Origin: Cyanidioschyzon merolae
Lineage: Eukaryota
DNA: 64,000 bases
Assembly: GCA_000091205.1 (NCBI GenBank)
Contig: AP006497.2
Strand: one strand, 5' to 3'
Positions 1-45,510 of this stretch are shown piece after piece. The notes beneath the pieces are model-generated. The model did not search any database. It was not told where the DNA came from and saw only the letters and a program-made list of their open reading frames with translations. The translations under genes were made by a program, and so were the position numbers. Position 1 is the stretch's first letter. Each line of letters starts with the position of its first letter.

Positions 1-1411
1 TCGACCGTTTCGATGTGCATCACGTCGCGATACATCTCCCTCACCAAATGCATCAGTCCTGACGACGCCTTGACAATACTCTTGGAGTACGAGTCGACAC
101 GTTTTTCGATAGCGTCTTGCAGCCTTTCCCTGTACGGATCCTTGATATGTCCAAGAAGAAAGGTTTTCACCACCATCTCGTTCTACGGTTGTCTTTCTTG
201 TCGCCTTCAACGTAGGGCCTCCCACTTTCGGTCCTTCTTCTCTCCCTTTTCTTCTGGACTCGGCACTGTTTTTCGTTTTTTTCTGGCAGCCGGCGACCCT
301 GGGCCTCCAGGATCGTGGACTTGCTTTTTCATAGCTTTCCTTTTTTAGTTTTTTTTTGAAAAACAACGCTCTGTGAACGCTTCTGTTATATACTGCGAAA
401 AAAACTTGAATACACTTGTTTGAGGTTTGAAAGAAAAATGAACTAAAAAACTGTACTCTGCTAAGACCTTAACGGAAATCCAATTTTTCCAGTACAACAA
501 CACGCTACTGATCAGGATCGCGTTTCCCTTCAACAGCGGCATTCGCATCGTGTCAGTAGACTGGCCGATCTCCGAGGTATCTGGGCGTCGATCTGGTCGT
601 GGTGAGCAAAACCCCGGGTACAAAAACACCGATAACAAAACAAACTAGTCGCAAACTATTTATTAAAGAACAACTATCTTAAAGACTCACATATCACGCC
701 CGCCTTAGAGGTCTAGTTTTTCCGGAGAAGCTCTGAAAGTGGGTTAACGCGGGGTGCTTGGGCGACAGCGAAGGAAGCCCACACCAGGGACCTTAACCGC
801 AACGAACGGAGGGGCGGCGGCAGTAGCACCAGAAAATGTTGACGAAAATCCTGATCAGTCATCCGCCCCTCCCGAATCAACGCTGCAGGTTCCGGCGCAA
901 ATCTTGGATCGATCCTTAAACTCGGGCTCCGGTTTACCTCCTACATTGGGTACCTACCTCAACTTTGGAAACAGTCTCGGCGGATACTTTGGAAGACGGC
1001 TGGCAGCATGTTCACTGTCAAAAGTGGAATAAGCGGCTTGCCCGCCTATGTGTTTGGGGAGCGGATACGAAGCCGCTGAAAGGTTGGTTCATAGAGTATC
1101 CCCTGTGGTTGAGGGTAGCTTCACGCGTCCGGCAAGATAAAGGTCGCATTTGAATCGACCTTGACTAGCGTACATCTGATTCTACGCTAGCGCTGCGGCA
1201 GACACTCAGTGAACGACTGGAATGCAGGAGGCGCTGGAGGCATGTGCGATCACACACGCCATGGAGGGTGCGTCTAAATTGACGACGTATCTCTGGAATG
1301 CCGCAGCGCTATTCCTATTCCCTTACGCGCTACGAATCGGTAGGTATTGCATCATGGAATATTTGTGGGATAGCCTCGGAATTGAGCTACGAAATATCGA
1401 ATTACCAGTAG

Positions 1412-4400
1412 AGTAAAGAGGAACTTATACAAGTCGGGGACTCTACAATAGGGAAAGAGACCCAACCAGATACGGAAAAGGAGGCACAAAGTCCTCATGA
1501 TCCACGTACCAGAAGAGTAACTAGAGAAAGCAGCTCAGCAAAAAGCCCGAAGAAGAAGAAGACCAACAAGAAAAGACAGAAGAATAGAGAGAAGAACACC
1601 CAAGCGGGCCCATCACAAGGTATCCCCCGAAAGGGCACTCCAGCGGGAACTCAAGAAAGCTGTCAACAAACCGAGTCACCTACTCACAGCGCTGAAGATC
1701 CGAAAAGCCGTGCATGCAAGTCTTTAGACCAATTGGCACGCGAGTTTGTAGATGAGAATCAGAAGATCGCCAGAGAACTGGGACTGCTGGCACCAGAACG
1801 CAACAGTTGCAAACCTCAGTACCTGAAACGACGTAAAAAAGCACAGATTGATGAATGCCACCGACTCAACAAGATCGTCAACCGCACCGCCATACGCGCC
1901 AACGCCGGAGACAAGGAAGCGAAGGCAGCGCTACCGGCGCTACAGGCGCAACATGAGGAAGCTATCAAAAGAAAGAAGAAACTTTCCAGAGAAAACAAAC
2001 GAGGGGATCGAAACCGCAGAATCGCCTCCCTGGCGAAATCTATGCTAGAGAGCACCAACGAAGATGAGACTTGGCGCTACATCCGATCGAGACTGGACCC
2101 ACCAAAAAAGTGCTTGGGGCTCACACCAATCGTTTATAAGGAAGCGCTGAGGACGGAGAGTTCCTCAGTGAATGAGGCCTGGACGGACCACGGGATAGAG
2201 CTGCATGAAGAAGCAACTGGGAACTGCCAAGACCGAATCTATTGGCACCAATATGCTGCAGAACTACCGCGCCTCGACCTGGTACCAGAATGGAACGACC
2301 CAATCTTCTGGCCTGAATCTGTTCGGACCCTCTTAAGGTCATGCAACCGCAAAACACCTGGCTTTAACGGTATCCCTGCGGAGTGGATGAGACTGGCGAC
2401 CCCAAAAGACGGGACAACAGGGACACCATCGATACCAGATGAACCTGACACAATCTTAGGCAAACGCCCTCTGGAGCTCATCCAACGCATGTTTGAAGAG
2501 GCATACATCCCTGATGTATGTAGGAGTGTTGAGGTCGCACCGATCCTCAAAAAGGACTCCCACATACACAGACATGAACAACTACCGGACTATTCGCCTC
2601 ATCCCGTCAATCATGAAGCTACTTTGCGCCATCCTCACAAACCGGATCCAGAGGGGCCTCTAGGAGCGCAAGTTCTTCGCCCCAAAACAGGCTGGACTCC
2701 GGAGCCGCGAGGAGTGCATGAGCCATGTCCTGACCCTCATTGAAGTGGCGCAACGTCGCTTCATTAGCGACCAACAACCAACTTACGTATGCTTCATCGA
2801 CTTCCAAGAGGCATTTGACACGGTCCCGCATGAGGCTCTATTTCTGAAGATGGAACGAGCCGGAGTCTCCGCAAACTGCTTGGCGTTTTTCCGTGCGCTC
2901 TATGCAGACTCGTGGATGCGCATCCGACTGGGCGACGGCTCAAGAACCCCTTGTATAAGAATACGCCGTGGACTGCGACAGGGCGACCCCGCATCCCCGC
3001 TCCTTTTCAACATCTTCATCAACGATCTGCTGAACAATTGCAGACAATACGGGCTTGAGGTGCCGTGGATAGACTGTGGAGATGCTCGGTGAGGAGCCCT
3101 CACGTAGGAACCGCCTCGCAGGCCTTCTATTTGCGGACGATGTCGTGCTGTTGGCACCCGCCCCGGAAACGCTTGCGGCTAGCATGGAACAAGTCAGCGC
3201 CTGGGCCGATCGCTGGGAGATGAGCATAGGAGCATCGAAGTGCGGCGTTATGGCCATCCATGGAGACTCGCAGAGCATTCGCAATCGCTCGTGGCGGTTG
3301 CAGAATCAGGAAATTCCGATCGTGGAAAAATATCGCTACCTGGGGGTCTGTCTCACGCCGACGCTTGACGAAAAGGCACACGTCGACGAGATGATCGCCA
3401 AGATGCATAGACGTACAGCGATCGCACGCCCAGTCCTATCCGACCCTTCTATCCCCTTAGCAATCCATACGAGGGCACTAAGGATGTGTATCATCCAGCC
3501 TACGACCTGGGGTGCTGAATGGTGCAGCATGAAGCACCCAAATGCCTCGCGTCTGCAGACAGCCGCCAACAGGGCAATGCGACTCGTTGTTGTTGTTGGA
3601 TGCTCAGTGCAGAGCAGAGCGACCAACCTGCTGGCACTCGGACTTGAACTCGAAATACCCTCGATAGAAGCGATAGCAGCAGGCTGCTGGGCATGTATAC
3701 GGACCAAAGGGCCCGCCATGCGCACCTCTTTGAGTCGGATTTTCATGCAGACCCCAACGCACCGCAAGAAAACTTGGATGAAATCAGCGCAGATTTGGCT
3801 GATGCGCCTCTTAGGCGAAAACACGCTCCAATCGTTCCCCAGGAATATAGAATTCTCCCGTCGCCTCAAGCGAACGGTCCAAACACCAATATGGGAACGT
3901 ATACACGGTACCAGTCGCGCCAGTAACGCCGGCTTGACCCTATCCGGAACTACAACCTAGAATACACATGCAAGCACTGATGGGAGGCGCTGGAATTCCC
4001 GGGACTTGCTCGAGGTGCCCAGTAGCTCGCCAAAATCCACGTTGGTGGCTCCTGGCTACCAGCACGTGCTCTAAGCCGTATAGGAACACTGGAATCGCAC
4101 TGGGAATCACACTGTCCCTGCTGTCGAGACGAGACCCCCCCCCCCCCCGAGACGCTGACATATTTAGGCTTACAGTGCCCGCGCTGGAAGCAGGAGCGCA
4201 GCGAGCTCCTTGAAGGACAGCAGCAGCTGGGCATCAGCGTGATAGTCGAAGGCCGGACACTCACTCTGAGTGTAGCACTGGCAACTGATGGTCCGTTAAC
4301 GGAGCCTCAGCGCTCATCAATGGCGAACAAACTCACATGCTACGTTCTAGGCAGAAGGTCCAGCGAATCGGATGCGCACACGGGCCCAGTGCGCTTTCTG

Positions 4401-4898
4401 CGCCTACCCACTGTGGTGGGTATCGAGCACAAACCCACGTTGCCAACCGACAACAATGCATTCCATGCATGATCACGAAGGAGAGAGGCGGCTCCCAGGA
4501 TATATCCTAACAACCAAGTTTCTCCAGCGTGTCGTGCAGCGAATACAAGCCTGCATCCGCAGACTGTCCGAGCACAAACTGACGACGAGACCCGATTCTA
4601 CGTCGGGTGAACCACACCTCGAGCCGACGCCCTTTGTGGTACGCCAACGCCGTTCTGTCTCCGTGCAGCGACAGCACCGGCGCTGTAGGCGCTATTGCTG
4701 TCGCTTTCGGCAGGTACTAGGCACACACGATAGGACGTATGAAATGACCAGTATATTCGAGAAGAAGTAGAGGTAATGTAAAATGGAGGTAGGGGGTTGA
4801 TGGATACCTCACCTCGCACTGAAAACCCCAAAAAGAAAAGAAAAATGCGCATAATCGGAGAACGCTGGCCTATGGAAACGTCTTGGCAATGAAAAAAA
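1412..4898 (+). mobile_element. Degenerate non-LTR (LINE-like) retrotransposon copy. The 5' boundary is uncertain and the 3' end is a short A-run.
   Basis: Reverse-transcriptase motifs are spread over three overlapping frames (FIDFQEAFDTVPHEALF, RGLRQGDPASPLLFNIFINDLL, LLFADDVVLLAP). A Cys-rich C-terminal knuckle (HCPCC...LQCPRW) lies around 4110-4190. The reading frame stays open upstream to 1412. The element ends ...GGCAATGAAAAAAA at 4898. Its last ~560 bp recur at 33269-33562 and 44697-45251. No AP-endonuclease domain was recognised upstream, so the copy may be 5'-truncated. Confidence 0.8.
1733..3960 (+). pseudogene. Reverse-transcriptase ORF disrupted by frameshifts (three overlapping ORFs: 1733-2743, 2718-3092, 3076-3960)
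   Basis: The RT domain continues from one frame into the next near 2570-2720 and again near 3076-3092. None of the three frames covers the whole RT domain. Confidence 0.8.
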
Positions 4899-5355
4899 TT
4901 CAGGGCGTCCCTTTCCCACGGTGTCCGCTATGGCGATTCGATGCGCCGCGATCGCCGCCGACGTCGCCCGAGGCGGGTGCCGCGTGCGCGGCGCCGCCTT
5001 CTTTCGCCGATGTCGCGACCTACTCCGCCGACACTTGTTTCTAAGGCGACCACCGCGACAGTGTCGACGGCTTGAAGCTTCGGTTTGTGTCTTGCCAGTG
5101 ACGTTTGGACTATAGTCGCGACACTCGTCTCTCCGTGTGACTCGTTCTAGGAAGATTACTCAAAGCACTAAGCACAGATCTTCAAGCGTCTCTAACAAAC
5201 GAGTGCGTTGGACTTTGGGTTGGACGGCAAGCTCGTGAGGCCCTCCGAGTGAAGTGGAACCCTGTCGAAACGAAAGCGCTGTGGGCTGTTTCTGAAAAAG
5301 CGGTCGCACTGGCGCTTCTCTGAACCGCTGCGTTTCCGTGGCGTGTATCGAGTTT

Positions 5356-32045: not shown

Positions 32046-32243
32046 TCAGCGAAGTCGTCGTGCTTCGCGTTCGCTTTCGAGGAGCGTGAGGATGTCGCCC
32101 TCGCGCACTGGACCCTTCACGTTGCGGATGATCGAACGATTCTGATCATCCAGAAACTCCACCCGAACTTGAATGACACCACCCCGGGACCCAGTTCGCC
32201 CAAGAATCTGTTTCACTCTTGCAAGTTTTACCGGTTGATCCAT
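32046..32243 (-). CDS. RPS28: 40S ribosomal protein S28 (eS28)
   Basis: [65 protein letters not shown] is near-identical in pattern to eS28. The true start is the internal ATG at 32243, not the ORF-track start at 32372. Confidence 0.93.
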
Positions 32244-33268
32244 CGCAAACACAAGCGAACTTGGATGCAAACGCAGGCACACAGCGCTCAACAAGAAACA
32301 ATGCGAAACAGCGCGTCCTGAATGCGACAGATGCGCACGCAGCGTCGTCGCTGCGGCGCGCCGCGATGTCACGCGCCTAGCCCGATGTGACGTTCGCGGT
32401 GCGATGCGCCAAGCACCAGCGCACGCCGACGGGCGGCGGCGTAACCGCGGGATGCTTCACCTGCAGTATCCCTGGATGTGCGAATTCGGCGTGGAACTCG
32501 GGGAAAGGAACCTCAAGTACCGCAGAGCACTGAAGACGCTGCGTCAAAATTCTGACGAGTAACGCATTGAGGACGAATCGGTCGCGTGATTTCCACAGTG
32601 CCGAGCGCATTCGTGTCGTTCAATGGGGTGAACTTGGGGCATTCTTCCACATGGGTCCAGATGTTTATAGGGTGCAAGTAGTTAGCAAATAGGCCGTTGT
32701 TCATGTACAGGCACTTTCGCAAAACGCCAGATTCAGAGGACGCTTGCGTATGGCCTTAGTAGCGAGACCCTGCGATGATGCTGGTGGCGAGTCGGGCGCT
32801 GGTGCTTACTGCAGCACCAGATGCACAGCCCAGAAGTGTGTCGCGAGAAGGAACGGTCACGCGGTAACTGCCTCTGCTTTTTGGTTTCACACCTGCACTG
32901 TCCACGTTTCTTTCTCTCTGTCCAACACTTGATGATCGCCATCATGGTTCAGAGCCCGTCGCATGGAAACTTCAGCGGGATGCAATTCCATGACAACGGA
33001 TGCGCTGGATTCGTGCTGAAGCCCACGCACGCTCAGCGATGTTGTTCTGTCTGGGAGGAAACGAGACGACGCTGGAACATCCACCATCGAAAAACTTGCC
33101 TACAGTCTGCTCCGCGTCAACAGAGTCGCTGGATGGACTGATCTGTGGCTCGTGCGCAGCGTCCTCACATCCGCTAAAAACAAGTGATGATCGCTCGTCT
33201 GGTTTTGGGCGGCAACTGCACCTTTAGTGGACTACTGTGCGACGTATCCATCAAACTGCATGAAGCGA

Positions 33269-33562
33269 GAAGCCGACGCCCTCTGTGTGTGCTACGGCAA
33301 CGCCGTACTGTCTCCGTGCAGCGACCGCACCGGCGCTATAGACGACATTGCGGTCGCTTTTGGCAGGCACTAGGCACACACGATAGGACGTATGAAACGA
33401 CCAGAATATCCGAGAAGAAGTATAGGTCATGTAACTTGGAGGTAGCGGGTTTGATGGATACTTCACCGCGCACTGAAAAAACACAAAGAAACAGAAAGAA
33501 AAGAAAAAAGCGCATAATCGGAGAACGCTGGTCTATGGAAACGTTTTGTCAATGAAGAAAAG
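33269..33562 (+). mobile_element. 5'-truncated copy of the retrotransposon 3' module (E2), flanked by an 18-bp target-site duplication
   Basis: It aligns to 4621-4898 of the RT-bearing element and ends ...GTCAATGAAGAAAAG. The sequence TCAAACTGCATGAAGCGA occurs perfectly at 33251-33268 and again at 33563-33580, immediately flanking the insert. Confidence 0.88.
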
Positions 33563-33758
33563 TCAAACTGCATGAAGCGAAAAGGCGCCGCCGCCGCCGC
33601 TGCCGCCTGCTGCGCAACGAAACATCGCGCGACGTCCAAGTCCGATACAAGCTCTGCTGCTACACATCACGCCTGTAAACGTACTCGCCGCGAGTCGCGT
33701 CGTTCTTCTGTACTTTGTGAGAGCGCTTGGGAGCATGCCTGGTTGAGCACGAGTGCTC

Positions 33759-34370
33759 ATGCGATACCTGCGATCAAGCGCATTGACTGCGCGACTGATC
33801 AAAGCCGGGTGTTTGCGTGAACCAGCGTGGATGTCGGCGCTCCGGGGTCTGGAGGCTGTACGCGCACAGCCCGTGCTTGATCCGGACGCTCGGGTTCCGA
33901 AGCCTGGAACCCGGACGCGTACGGCGAATGACCACACTTCACGGGTATCGCTGCTGCAACGACTGCGCCGCCGACTTGCGGAACGTCACCCCGAGTGGCT
34001 ACTCCACGTTGTGGTTGACCTCAATGCACCAACGAGAGCAGAGCGCGACGTGATCGAAAAGTTTGTTCGTATGCAGGCGGAGCTCATTCAGAGGGAGCAG
34101 TTGTCCGAAGAGGAAGCTTATGAACGCACGCTGGCCGTGCTACGCAGCGAACTACCGCGGACGTCGCAGCTGGCGGCGCTGGTTGAACAGCAGCAGACCG
34201 CGTCAAAGAGTGTCGGGTTGTCTCAGGTTATGGTGGCCGCACCGTCGCTTTCCGTTGCTAGTCCCGAGCGCCCACTCCAGGATCCAGAGGCCGTTTTTCT
34301 GGCAAGTCTCCAGGATGCACAACGTGATCGCTGGTTATTCGAGCAGTTTAGTAGACGTTTAACGAGTTAG
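33759..34370 (+). CDS. Hypothetical protein, possibly mitochondrial ribosomal protein mS23-like
   Basis: 203 aa counting from the first ATG. The N-terminal ARLIKAGCLREPAWMSAL and the later VIEKFVRMQAELIQREQLSEEEAYERT resemble the mS23 pattern (R.L..AG.L.E.P.W, then FVEKY..LQ....EE). The assignment is weak and made by eye only. Confidence 0.45.
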   Translation: MRYLRSSALTARLIKAGCLREPAWMSALRGLEAVRAQPVLDPDARVPKPGTRTRTANDHTSRVSLLQRLRRRLAERHPEWLLHVVVDLNAPTRAERDVIEKFVRMQAELIQREQLSEEEAYERTLAVLRSELPRTSQLAALVEQQQTASKSVGLSQVMVAAPSLSVASPERPLQDPEAVFLASLQDAQRDRWLFEQFSRRLTS

Positions 34371-38540: not shown

Positions 38541-38929
38541 CAGCACGCGCATGATGCGTGCGTGCTTGGCACCGAACGCAGTAGCCACGACGACTCCTAC
38601 AGAGCGCCTCCTCTGGGTCGTTGAGGGCGTCAGATTCCATGCCACACTTGAGACTGGCAGTGCCCATACACGCACTGGAGCTGAGCGTTGTCATAAATCG
38701 GGACCTGGGGCTGCGAAACAATCGCTCTCAATGGTATTGCTGGCGTGCAACGAATGGACAGCGGGCACCACAACGCAAGTGCCCGCGGAATGCGGTGCGC
38801 TGGATGATTTCCTTGCATCTGTATGCAAGGATGCGCGCTCTGCTTCTTGTGCTGGTGCTGCTGCTTTGGGGAATTTGTGCACGTGCGTCATCCACGCTGA
38901 TGGTTGCTTTTCGAATGGTGACTACTGAG
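38541..38929 (-). repeat. Repeat D1, the inverted partner of D2 (44303-44690)
   Basis: The translated ORF pair 38500-38928(+) and 44307-44711(-) differs at 4 of ~125 aa, which implies about 98% nucleotide identity in inverted orientation. Confidence 0.88.
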
Positions 38930-39709
38930 GCGCATTCGCGAACATACATACTGATCTTTACCGAGCAGCAAGCGCGAAGCAGTCGCATGTAAGCGATTGT
39001 TGCGACAATCAGCTACCCGCATGCGTAAAGCTCTACCATTGCCAACGATGCTCTCTACTGAAACCGCATCATCCTCGGAAGGCACGTATCACCGATGCGC
39101 TATTATCATTGGACGCAAGCCGCCGAATCATCGTGCCGTTCGGCAGCGCGTGCACCACCAAACGATCAAAAAGCGCAGGTTACACCTGCACCCGTTCGCC
39201 TGCACCGCAGTATCTCGTTCAAGCAGTCGCACGATGATGGGGCTATTGCGCCAATCTGGAAACCGCACCGCCGTCCACCGACAATCCCGCGAACACCCGT
39301 GTCCTTTCCTACCTAACAAAATGTTAACGTACACCGGGGGATTCCGATTGGGCGCCAGCTAGCAGCGCTCTATGTAGCAAACACACGTCCACGTGTCGAT
39401 CGCGCGTGCACCGGAATCCCGCCTCTGCCAGCAGCTGTGCGCTGCGGTGATCGCGGATTCGCGCCAACGACGCCAAGCGCTGCTGCTGGTGCTCTCGGTG
39501 CCCGTAATCCGTTGTTGCGCTCAGACGATATGCGCGCGCGCGCACGCTGGCGGGGGCACTGGCTGCGATCCGCGAACGTACGTTGCCGTAGCGCTGCATT
39601 TTTCGTTGAGGCTGTGCTTGCTCGTAGGTCGAGAAGCGGCCCGGTTGCGGCCGCAAACAAGTTCGAGTCCAAACGGGACCCGCAACAACACGAACAAGTG
39701 TTTTGGTGA

Positions 39710-44302: not shown

Positions 44303-45251
44303 GACCTCAGTAGTCACCATTCGAAAAGCAACCATCAGCGTGGATGACGCAAGTGCACATATTCCCCGAAGCAGCAGCACCAGCACAAGCAGCAGAGCGC
44401 GCATCCTTGCATACAGATGCAAGAGAATCATCCAGCGCACCGCATTCCGCGGGCACTTGCGTTGTGGTGCCCGCTGTCCATTCGTTGCACGCCAGCAATA
44501 CCATTGAGAGCGATTGTTTCGCAGCCCCAGGTCCCGATTTATGACAACGCTCAGCTCCAGTGCGTGTATGGGCACTGCCAGTCTCAAGTGTGGCATGGAA
44601 TCTGACGCCCTCAACGACCCAGAGGAGGCGCTCTGTAGGAGTCGTCGTCGCCACTGCGTTCGGTGCCAAGCACGCACGCATCATGCGCGTGCGCGTACCT
44701 TCTAGGCACAAGGTCCAGCGAATCGGATGCGCACACGGGTCCAGTGCGCTCTCTGCGCCTACCCACTGTGGTGGGTGTCAAGCACAAACCCGCATTGCCA
44801 ACCGACAACGCATTCCATGCATGATCACGAAGGAGAGAGGCCGCTCCCAGGATTCATCCTAACAGCCAAGTTTCTCCAGCGTGTCGTGCAGCGAAGGCAA
44901 GCCTGCATCCGCAGACTGTCTGAGCACAAACTGACGACGAGACCCGATTCTACGTCGTGTAAACCACGCTTCGAGCCGACGCCCTCTGTGGTATAGAAAA
45001 GCTATTCTAGCTCTATGAACTATCTGCTCCAGCGGTTCAGGCGCAAAGGCGGATGATTAGGGTAGGTACTAGACACACCCGATAGGGCATATGAGACGAC
45101 CAGAATATCCGAGAAGAAGTATAGGTAATGTAACTTGGGAGTAGGAGGTTGATGGATACTTCACCTCGCACTGAAAAACCCAAAAAGAAAAGAAAAATGC
45201 GCATAATCGGAGAACGCTGGCCTATGGAAACGTTTCGTCAATGAAAAAAAA
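44303..45251 (+). mobile_element. Composite retroelement fragment: repeat D2 (44303-44690) fused to the 3' module E3 (44697-45251), ending in an A-run
   Basis: E3 aligns with 4337-4898 and ends ...GTCAATGAAAAAAAA at 45251. D2 contains a degenerate Cys-knuckle-like stretch (WCPLSIRC...TIES...) at the position where the RT-bearing copy has HCPCC...LQCPRW. This suggests a 5'-truncated copy of a related subfamily. Confidence 0.7.
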
Positions 45252-45510
45252 TGTGCATGCGCGCCGTCGCCGCGTCGCTGCGTGCGTGCCCCGTCATCGA
45301 TGCCGTGCACGCGGTAGCGCTGAACGCTCTAGCGAGCGAGGCAGCAGCGTCTTCATTCCTTCTTTGTGACAGAGGCACCGCGCTACCTTCATACGTCTTG
45401 ATCTGGTTACCTCACAACGTGCATAGCGTTTGAAACTGCACTCGTATCCTACTTACAAAGGACGTGGCGGCGTGAGAGGAAAAGCAGTGGCACGGACGCG
45501 ATCCCGCGAG

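What the first reader, a model, noticed from the sequence alone, without database searches (positions are those of the whole stretch)
33251..33580. Clear retroposition footprint: a 294-bp 5'-truncated retroelement tail flanked by a perfect 18-bp target-site duplication
TCAAACTGCATGAAGCGA occurs at 33251-33268 and again at 33563-33580, directly abutting an insert. The insert aligns to the last ~280 bp of the RT-bearing element (4621-4898) and ends in an A-rich tail. This is the classic signature of target-primed reverse transcription with 5' truncation. The family was therefore active after the surrounding intergenic sequence existed. The insertion lies in the ~1.5-kb region between the divergently oriented RPS28 and mS23-like genes, about 200 bp upstream of the latter's ATG.
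Basis: seen in the sequence. Interest (0 to 1): 0.5.

Follow-up and report, generated by a model that had tools for sequence, protein, structure and literature searches.

The report
LINE tail insertion with target duplication

Summary
TCAAACTGCATGAAGCGA occurs only at 33251-33268 and 33563-33580. It brackets a 294-bp insert that is about 85% identical to the last 277 bp (4622-4898) of a frameshifted reverse-transcriptase element.

The window is C. merolae 10D chromosome 15. The element belongs to the non-LTR family annotated there as "retroelement".

I collected 49 independent tail copies from related hot-spring metagenomes. They show normal retroposition hallmarks:
- Target-site duplications (TSDs) have a median of 13 bp and a range of 9-27 bp. 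This 18-bp TSD is long but within range.
- Copies end in a short A7-8 run.
- The preferred target is C|ATCG. This site is CA|TCA.

Seventeen of 45 truncated copies start at the same place (element positions 4611-4622), and four more start at 4340-4345, including the window's third copy at 44696. The cause is unresolved.

All of the more than 14 related contigs (98.8-99.2% identical) carry the insertion. No empty site was found. No member of the family shows a complete endonuclease domain. This is ordinary transposon biology with some modestly new family-level detail.

The parts
33251..33268 (+). Left copy of the 18-bp target-site duplication TCAAACTGCATGAAGCGA
   Evidence: Exact, one of only two occurrences in the window. 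Invariant in all related contigs.
33269..33562 (+). 294-bp tail-only copy of the LINE. Its 5' end lies within 0-5 nt of the family's recurrent start (CCTCGAGCCGACG...), with 3 extra nt (GAA) at the junction.
   Evidence: 84.9% identity to 4622-4898. 7.4% from the consensus of the short copies. Alignments.
33563..33580 (+). Right copy of the 18-bp target-site duplication
   Evidence: It directly abuts the terminal GAAGAAAAG of the insert.
33249..33253 (+). Target motif CA|TCA at the first-nick site, a 4/5 match to the family preference C|ATCG
   Evidence: Position counts at 25 confident TSDs: -1 C 20/25, 0 A 18/25, +1 T 17/25, +2 C 19/25, +3 G 18/25.
33475..33509 (+). Internal purine-rich stretch whose length varies between copies
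   Evidence: Alignments.
33510..33562 (+). Conserved 3' block GCGCATAATCGGAGAACGCTGG...AACGTTTTGTCAATG followed by the terminal A-run (here GAAGAAAAG)
   Evidence: Invariant 22-mer in the three window copies. It was used as the search pattern and recovered at least 120 metagenome stretches.
590..4899 (+). About 4.3-kb degenerate LINE copy of the same family. The RT lies at roughly 2480-3350 and is split over three frames with one in-frame stop. There is a CCHC-like knuckle near 4100-4180. The 3' UTR tail (4617-4898) is the part homologous to the insert.
   Evidence: RVT_1 hits. Frame translations. 82-88% aa identity to family members, including two C. merolae 10D proteins named 'retroelement, alive'. 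Candidate degenerate TSD TCTGGGCGTC (580-589) / TCAGGGCGTC (4900-4909), 9/10, read (low confidence).
44696..45251 (+). Third copy in the window: a 555-bp tail-only copy starting at the second recurrent 5' boundary (element position 4341). Candidate 13-bp degenerate TSD ATGCGCGTGCGCG (44683-44695) / ATGTGCATGCGCG (45251-45263), 11/13.
   Evidence: 86.7% identity to 4341-4898. Sequence. Three other independent loci start at 4340-4345.
32046..32243 (-). RPS28 gene, left neighbour, 1025 bp from the insert
   Evidence: Pfam Ribosomal_S28e 3.7e-32. Exact match to BAM81419 of C. merolae 10D.
33759..34370 (+). 203-aa ORF of unknown function, right neighbour, with its ATG 197 bp from the insert end
   Evidence: Called as a gene in all related contigs. 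No Pfam or PDB hit. The only homologue is a Cyanidiococcus hypothetical protein at 50% identity.

Best explanation
SHOWN: A cDNA of the last ~290 nt of a C. merolae non-LTR retrotransposon was inserted into the RPS28 / 203-aa-ORF intergenic region. The signature is that of target-primed reverse transcription (TPRT). The inferred first nick on the bottom strand lies opposite CA|TC, a near match to the family's preferred C|ATCG. Reverse transcription started from the element's short terminal A-run. The inferred second nick lies 18 bp downstream on the top strand, and fill-in produced the perfect 18-bp duplication. The event is old. The copy is 7.4% from the short-copy consensus, and the insertion is present in every sampled C. 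merolae-like population (up to about 1.2% diverged). The copy has no coding capacity and was dead on arrival. INFERRED (about 45%): the copy is not a randomly truncated cDNA. It is an essentially complete copy of a discrete ~285-290-nt RNA species, or template end, that begins at element position ~4617. That species would be produced repeatedly from 'type A' LINE copies, by an internal start or by processing, and mobilised through the shared 3' tail. NOT IDENTIFIED: the nuclease that makes the nick. Every sampled member of the family keeps only about 45 residues resembling the N-terminus of an APE-type endonuclease.
For: - The repeat is exact and unique.
- Homology is confined to the element's 3' end, and that element encodes an RT.
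- Family-wide behaviour at 49 independent loci: copies have their own TSDs (25 confident; median 13 bp, range 9-27) and share the C|ATCG target consensus.
- The window is C. merolae 10D chromosome 15, a genome reported to carry 26 non-LTR class I elements (PMC1955436).
- The insertion is fixed: 14 or more contigs at 98.8-99.2% identity all carry both TSD copies 311-313 bp apart.
- For the discrete 5' end: 17 of 45 truncated loci start at 4611-4622, with the mode at exactly 4617 (p about 3e-18), and 4 start at 4340-4345 (p about 9e-4).
- TSDs abut that start directly at several loci, for example ATCGCCCTGAAAC|CCTCGAG and TCGAAAGAGTATC|CCTCGAG.
- Two internally deleted LINEs (L109, L127) have their junctions at the same two boundaries, as expected if reverse transcriptase switches template at an RNA 5' end.
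- Long type-A LINE copies nest among the short copies in the tree.
Against: - No empty site was recovered, so the pre-insertion state is only reconstructed.
- A perfect 18/18 TSD is slightly unexpected for a copy 7.4% from its consensus (P about 0.06-0.07). Part of that divergence may belong to the source lineage.
- No complete endonuclease domain was found in the window copy or in any of 35 family proteins, so the enzymatic basis of the nick is inferred, not shown.
- For the discrete-RNA sub-claim there are no RNA data. No Rfam ribozyme or tRNA-like head was found. No promoter was identified. No extra 5' G was seen at the junctions.
- The tail's predicted fold (z = -3.0) has no covariation support.
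Confidence: 0.88

Rival explanations
1. Plain 5' truncation. A full-length LINE RNA was the template, and reverse transcription simply stopped or fell off. The pile-up of ends at ~4617 reflects a pause or dissociation site for the reverse transcriptase, or chance for this copy, rather than a separate RNA species.
For: 22 of 45 truncated copies end at scattered positions, so ordinary truncation does occur in this family. Long type-A LINE copies are interspersed with short ones in the tree. This copy starts 3-5 nt inside the modal start and has 3 untemplated or slipped nt at the junction.
Against: A 12-nt window holds 17 of 45 ends (p about 3e-18). The RNA just upstream of either hot spot is not unusually stable (z about -0.75). 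Chimeric elements have their junctions exactly at the hot spots, which fits a template end better than a pause.
Confidence: 0.3
2. The ~290-bp unit is a separate SINE-like non-autonomous retroposon. It would have its own master copies and borrow the LINE machinery through a shared 3' tail.
For: The 5' end is discrete and shared at 17 loci. All short copies carry the 'type A' version of the 3' UTR segment. A TG-dinucleotide expansion near the 5' end is seen in 8 of 17 short copies and 0 of 9 long copies (Fisher p = 0.023).
Against: There is no tRNA-, 5S- or 7SL-like head and no Rfam hit. The whole unit is collinear with the LINE 3' UTR, so it has no sequence of its own. It contains a TTTT run 12 nt before its 3' end, which would terminate RNA polymerase III (from the sequence; established knowledge of pol III termination). 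Long LINE copies nest inside the short-copy clade, including a sub-lineage defined by a shared 4-nt deletion.
Confidence: 0.15
3. Not retroposition. The LINE fragment arrived by a DNA-level event (segmental duplication, gene conversion, or capture at a double-strand break), and the 18-mers are a by-product or part of a longer duplication.
For: Similarity at the two junctions runs to 27/30 rather than stopping at 18. No endonuclease domain was identified in the family.
Against: The extra 12 nt on the left match the element's own 5' consensus, and the similarity ends there. The insert ends precisely at the element's 3' terminus with its A-run. The site matches the family's target motif, and the TSD length lies within the family range. 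The rest of the intergenic region is single-copy among 120 loci.
Confidence: 0.02

Closest known systems
Class I 'retroelements' of Cyanidioschyzon merolae 10D (26 non-LTR elements; Nozaki et al. 2007, PMC1955436)
   Same: Same genome. The window's RT element is 82-86% identical in protein to two 10D proteins named 'retroelement, alive', and the insert is a tail fragment of this family.
   Different: The published count covers RT-related elements only. Tail-only copies, their TSDs, the C|ATCG preference and the recurrent 5' ends were not described in any paper I could search. At least 49 distinct tail loci exist in closely related populations.
5'-truncated L1 insertions of mammals (TPRT by ORF2p; from established knowledge)
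   Same: A tail-only copy, variable 5' ends across the family, a TSD of about 7-20 bp, a terminal A-run abutting the TSD, and junction microhomology or extra nucleotides.
   Different: The A-run is short and fixed (7-8 nt) rather than a long poly(A). The target preference is C|ATCG, not TT|AAAA. TSDs cluster tightly at 13-14 bp. There are two sharp 5'-end hot spots. No complete APE domain was detected. The RT scores slightly closer to R2 proteins than to L1 ORF2p among solved structures (1.4e-20 versus 2.1e-14), which does not settle the clade.
Non-autonomous partners that share a LINE 3' tail, such as eel UnaSINE1/UnaL2 and trypanosome RIME/ingi and NARTc/L1Tc (from memory, not tested here)
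   Same: A short element with a defined 5' end and a 3' tail identical to that of the autonomous LINE. This implies recognition of the tail by the reverse transcriptase.
   Different: The unit has no promoter-bearing head or other sequence of its own and lies entirely within the LINE 3' UTR. Phylogeny does not separate it from the LINE copies.

Membership tests
Non-LTR (LINE) retrotransposon insertion made by target-primed reverse transcription | Sequence homologous to the 3' end of an RT-encoding element, ending at that element's 3' terminus | tested here: met
   33271-33562 aligns to 4622-4898 at 84.9%. RVT_1 hits in the long copy.
Non-LTR (LINE) retrotransposon insertion made by target-primed reverse transcription | Flanking target-site duplication that differs from copy to copy | tested here: met
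   18/18 here. 25 other loci have their own TSDs, median 13 bp.
Non-LTR (LINE) retrotransposon insertion made by target-primed reverse transcription | A-rich 3' terminus abutting the downstream TSD copy | tested here: met
   GAAGAAAAG here; A7-8 in the family. It is short and apparently templated.
Non-LTR (LINE) retrotransposon insertion made by target-primed reverse transcription | Series of 5'-truncated copies sharing a common 3' end | tested here: met
   5' ends range from 4253 to about 4833, all sharing the 3' end at 4898, but with hot spots at ~4617 and ~4341.
Non-LTR (LINE) retrotransposon insertion made by target-primed reverse transcription | No terminal inverted or long terminal repeats | tested here: met
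   The only repeats in 33100-33750 are the TSD pair and one 16-nt inverted match between flank and insert interior.
Non-LTR (LINE) retrotransposon insertion made by target-primed reverse transcription | Family encodes an endonuclease (APE-type or restriction-like) that makes the target nick | tested here: inconclusive
   No Exo_endo_phos hit in the window copy or in 35 family proteins. Only an N-terminal ...ASWNIxG...ELIQV...GKET remnant is present. A distant relative (P0024) ends an APE-like domain with SDHWPIEV. A consistent nick-site motif implies that a nuclease acts.
C. merolae 10D class I retroelement family | RT protein closely related to the annotated 10D retroelements, in the same genome | tested here: met
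   82-86% identity to the two 10D proteins P0004 and P0008, named 'retroelement, alive'. Window proteins are exact matches to 10D chromosome 15 entries.
SINE | Head derived from tRNA, 5S or 7SL with an internal pol III promoter | tested here: not met
   ARAGORN found no tRNA gene. Rfam gave 0 hits at E<=10 on 33150-33700.
SINE | Discrete 5' end shared by independent copies | tested here: met
   17 loci start at 4611-4622, with the mode at 4617.
SINE | Lineage of its own, distinct from the partner LINE | tested here: inconclusive
   Long type-A LINE copies nest among the short copies. A TG expansion is enriched in short copies (p = 0.023).

The most novel reading that the evidence does not exclude
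The ~290-nt (and ~555-nt) tail units are discrete, previously undescribed retroposed RNA species of C. merolae. They would be sub-genomic or processed LINE 3' UTR RNAs, or a head-less SINE-like family. They would be mobilised by a LINE lineage that has lost most of its own endonuclease yet still inserts at a defined C|ATCG site with a 13-bp stagger. This would mean that a nuclease supplied in trans, or an unrecognised one, does the cutting. It would also mean that the mobile-element load of this 'simplest' eukaryotic genome is larger than the published 26 elements.
Probability: 0.3. Interest if true: 0.45.

Novelty: new member of a known kind. Interest (0 to 1): 0.25.

Why it matters
For the finding itself, little: it is a dead, fixed fragment of a known retrotransposon family in a well-studied genome. 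Its position 197 bp upstream of a gene start is the only hint of possible regulatory relevance, and that was not testable here.

The family-level results are of modest use:
- They give the first measured TSD length, target motif (C|ATCG) and 5'-end distribution for the C. merolae LINE that I could find.
- They show that tail-only copies outnumber the RT-bearing elements counted in the genome papers.
- They raise two concrete questions: what defines the two sharp 5' ends, and which nuclease cuts. Both are directly testable in a genetically tractable alga.

Tried and rejected
- **Empty-site search.** An exact scan of JGI metagenome contigs for the reconstructed junction TCCATCAAACTGCATGAAGCGAAAAGG gave 0 hits. 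Exact-protein look-ups of RPS28 and the 203-aa ORF returned only filled alleles, plus Cyanidiococcus, whose 295-bp intergenic region does not align. A homology search with the 203-aa ORF found no intermediate lineage.
- **Known RNA families.** Rfam gave no hits on the insert. On the LINE tail it gave only sub-threshold noise (snoR118, TCL6_1; E>2). ARAGORN found no tRNA. Ribozyme and tRNA-head explanations for the discrete 5' end are therefore unsupported.
- **RNA structure.** The insert folds better than shuffles (z = -3.0), but RNAalifold on 18 copies gave no covariation (term +0.97; 1 compensatory pair in 53). A stem I noticed by eye (AGCGACMGCA/TGCKGTCGCT) is mismatched in most copies. Part of the tail was fixed by my own search pattern, so it cannot be assessed.
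- **Stable hairpin upstream of the hot spots.** Not found.
- **Fetching the 10D 'alive' element by exact protein look-up.** Not on record. The Rrp5-like ORF was also not on record.
- **Endonuclease search.** Pfam scans of upstream ORFs, of the C-terminal region and of family proteins gave no EEP or other nuclease domain. A third protein search with the N-terminal region found 35 fragments, none with an APE domain.
- **Clade assignment.** Among solved structures the RT scores higher against R2 than against L1 ORF2p. I did not consider this enough to name a clade.
- **Older antisense copy at the target.** The target site is 15/16 complementary to an internal motif of the insert. The local alignment does not extend (score 27 versus shuffle maximum 28), and other loci lack the feature. 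I treat it as coincidence or microhomology.
- **Failed runs.** One ViennaRNA script timed out. Two Pfam calls failed on stop codons.

Full report
**Observation.** The 18-mer TCAAACTGCATGAAGCGA is present at 33251-33268 and 33563-33580 and nowhere else in the window, even when two mismatches are allowed. Dinucleotide-preserving shuffles give a mean of 0.01 matches. The 294 bp between the two copies align to 4622-4898 at 84.9% identity. That stretch is the 3' end of an element at about 590-4899. Its ORFs, split over three frames with one in-frame stop, hit Pfam RVT_1. A third copy lies at 44696-45251 and matches 4341-4898 at 86.7%. The three copies have unrelated flanks, so the 18-mer is not element sequence.

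The junction similarity runs to 27/30. The additional 12 nt on the left match the family's own 5' consensus, those on the right are flank, and similarity then ends. The 'longer local duplication' refutation therefore does not apply.

The 'A-rich tail' is CAATGAAGAAAAG. The family consensus is CAATGAAAAAAA, a short run of nearly constant length.

**Organism and family.** Four window proteins are exact matches to C. merolae strain 10D entries on a 902,900-bp record, the length of chromosome 15 (BAM81412, BAM81419, BAM81427; lengths in PMC1955436). The frameshift-corrected RT is 82-88% identical to fragments from hot-spring metagenomes. It is 82-86% identical to two 10D proteins named 'retroelement, alive'. 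Nozaki et al. 2007 reported 26 class I elements in this genome, all non-LTR, three of them with an intact RT ORF. The family itself is therefore known.

**Relatives of the locus.** Exact-protein look-ups with RPS28 and the 203-aa neighbour returned more than 14 metagenome or read-assembly contigs that are 98.8-99.2% identical to the window across the intergenic region.
- Every contig that spans the site has both TSD copies 311-313 bp apart.
- Three short-read contigs break about 31 bp into the insert, as repeats do.
- The TSDs are invariant, and the insert has 3 SNPs and one indel.
- Cyanidiococcus yangmingshanensis (JANCYV01; PMC9812998) has the same gene order but only about 295 bp between the genes, with no alignable intergenic sequence.
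- A scan of metagenome contigs for the reconstructed empty site found nothing.
- A homology search with the 203-aa ORF found no intermediate lineage.

The insertion is therefore fixed in all sampled C. merolae-like populations and postdates the split from Cyanidiococcus, or the region arose after that split. The empty site remains a reconstruction.

**Family-wide anatomy.** I scanned metagenome contigs for the invariant 22-mer GCGCATAATCGGAGAACGCTGG. Clustering by flanks gave 57 clusters. After removing tandem arrays and duplicate clusters, these reduce to 49 independent loci. Twenty-five of them have confident TSDs.
- TSD lengths are 9-27 bp, the median is 13, and 13 of the 25 are 13 or 14 bp. 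The window's 18 bp is the third longest.
- The first-nick site has a clear consensus C|ATCG: C 20/25 at -1, then A 18, T 17, C 19 and G 18. The -1 C lies outside the duplicated segment, which argues for enzyme recognition rather than only primer-template annealing.
- The window site reads CA|TCA, a 4/5 match.
- The 44.7-kb copy has a degenerate 13-bp TSD (11/13) of the modal length.

**The 5' end is not random.** Of 45 loci that are truncated within the last 700 nt, 17 begin at element positions 4611-4622. Eleven of these begin at exactly 4617 (CCTCGAGCCGACG...). Each has a different flank, and several have a TSD abutting that first base. Against uniform truncation this gives p about 3e-18.

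Four further loci begin at 4340-4345 (p about 9e-4), including the window's 44.7-kb copy. The 33.2-kb insert starts 3-5 nt inside the modal start, with three extra nucleotides (GAA) at the junction. Both tail-only copies in the window therefore belong to recurrent size classes.

Two internally deleted LINEs in the metagenomes join upstream LINE sequence to the tail exactly at these boundaries. L109 joins 634-2437 to 4611-4898, and L127 joins 688-1282 to 4345-4898.

All short copies carry one of two alternative versions ('type A') of a ~70-nt 3' UTR segment. Long type-A LINE copies nest among them in a neighbour-joining tree.

I favour (about 45%) a discrete RNA or template end generated repeatedly from type-A LINE transcripts. 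RT pausing (about 30%) and an independent SINE-like lineage (about 15%) remain open. Tests for a cause were negative:
- no Rfam family or tRNA-like head;
- no unusually stable hairpin upstream;
- a TTTT run inside the tail, which argues against pol III transcription.

The tail RNA is predicted to be more structured than shuffles (z = -3.0), but there is no covariation across 18 copies. That is expected for copies that decay neutrally after insertion.

**Mechanism and its gap.** The anatomy fits target-primed reverse transcription. What I could not find is the nuclease. The window copy, L109 and three independently assembled ORFs (P0053-P0055) all run from an N-terminal ...ASWNIxG...ELIQV...GKET stretch straight into a Lys/Arg-rich segment and then into the linker and RT. 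The N-terminal stretch resembles the first ~45 residues of an APE-type endonuclease. That resemblance is my reading of the sequence, not a database hit.

No Pfam EEP hit appears in these ORFs or in any of 35 proteins found with that region. A distant relative (P0024) does end an APE-like domain with SDHWPIEV, so the wider clade probably had one. The cutting enzyme could be a complete copy not sampled here, a protein acting in trans, or an unrecognised domain. All sampled ORFs are fragments of at most 501 aa, which is consistent with a largely decayed family.

**Age.** The insert is 7.4% from the short-copy consensus, and its nearest relatives are 7.4-7.5% away. At that divergence the chance of no change in 36 TSD bases is about 0.06-0.07. 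This is compatible if part of the divergence belongs to the source lineage.

**Verdict.** The copy is an ordinary dead fragment of a known family. The new material is descriptive and at family level: the TSD mode, the C|ATCG preference, the two 5'-end hot spots, the many tail-only copies, and the absence of a recognisable endonuclease. Interest is low to moderate.

Noticed in passing
window 38543-38930 and 44305-44692: A 388-nt inverted repeat, 98% complementary, with 5.4 kb between the arms. The right arm ends 4 nt before the 555-bp tail copy. Metagenome contig L117 carries the segment between the arms in the opposite orientation, while L057 has the 10D orientation. This suggests an inversion polymorphism mediated by the repeat.
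   Followed up: partly
window 1-578: A dispersed repeat found at 68-86% identity in 13 metagenome loci, often directly next to LINE tails in either orientation. It may belong to the ~150-copy Fanzor-associated CMe-1A / TE-N2_CMe elements described for C. merolae (PMC3627910). This was not tested.
   Followed up: no
window 33241-33256 versus 33449-33464: The target site (GACGTATCCATCAAAC, spanning the nick) is 15/16 complementary to a conserved internal motif of the insert (GTTTGATGGATAC...). None of 200 shuffles reached this, but the match does not extend. Only one other locus (L033, CCATCAAC) shows anything similar. It could be coincidence, a tiny antisense remnant, or RNA-DNA pairing; this is unresolved.
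   Followed up: partly
window about 1340-1480 (frame 2); P0053-P0055; L109 13240-13557: The family ORFs keep only a ~45-residue N-terminal APE-like remnant (...ASWNIxG...ELIQV...GKET), followed by a Lys/Arg-rich stretch. No complete endonuclease domain was found in any of 35 related proteins. Even so, insertions show a sharp C|ATCG target preference.
   Followed up: partly
L109 12337-14166 and 12043-12340; L127 13639-14794: Internally deleted or chimeric LINE copies whose internal junctions fall exactly on the two 5'-end hot spots (4611 and 4345). The L109 junction sits at a CATCGAT/ACCA microhomology.
   Followed up: partly
L034, L055, L075 (150-bp period); L093 2813-3376 (about 113-116-bp period): Tandem arrays built from the last ~100-130 bp of the LINE tail plus a short spacer. 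They are tail-derived mini-satellites in related genomes.
   Followed up: no
window 4640-4710 versus 44995-45065: Two alternative, barely alignable versions (A and B) of a ~70-nt segment of the LINE 3' UTR, embedded in otherwise collinear sequence. Most long copies are type B, and all ~290-bp copies are type A.
   Followed up: partly
Its only homologue is a 'hypothetical protein' of Cyanidiococcus at 50% identity. It is not listed among NCBI sources for 10D.
   Followed up: yes
window 580-589 and 4900-4909: Candidate degenerate TSD of the 4.3-kb LINE copy: TCTGGGCGTC versus TCAGGGCGTC (9/10). This would place its 5' end at about 590, just after the end of the upstream dispersed repeat (578).
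   Followed up: no
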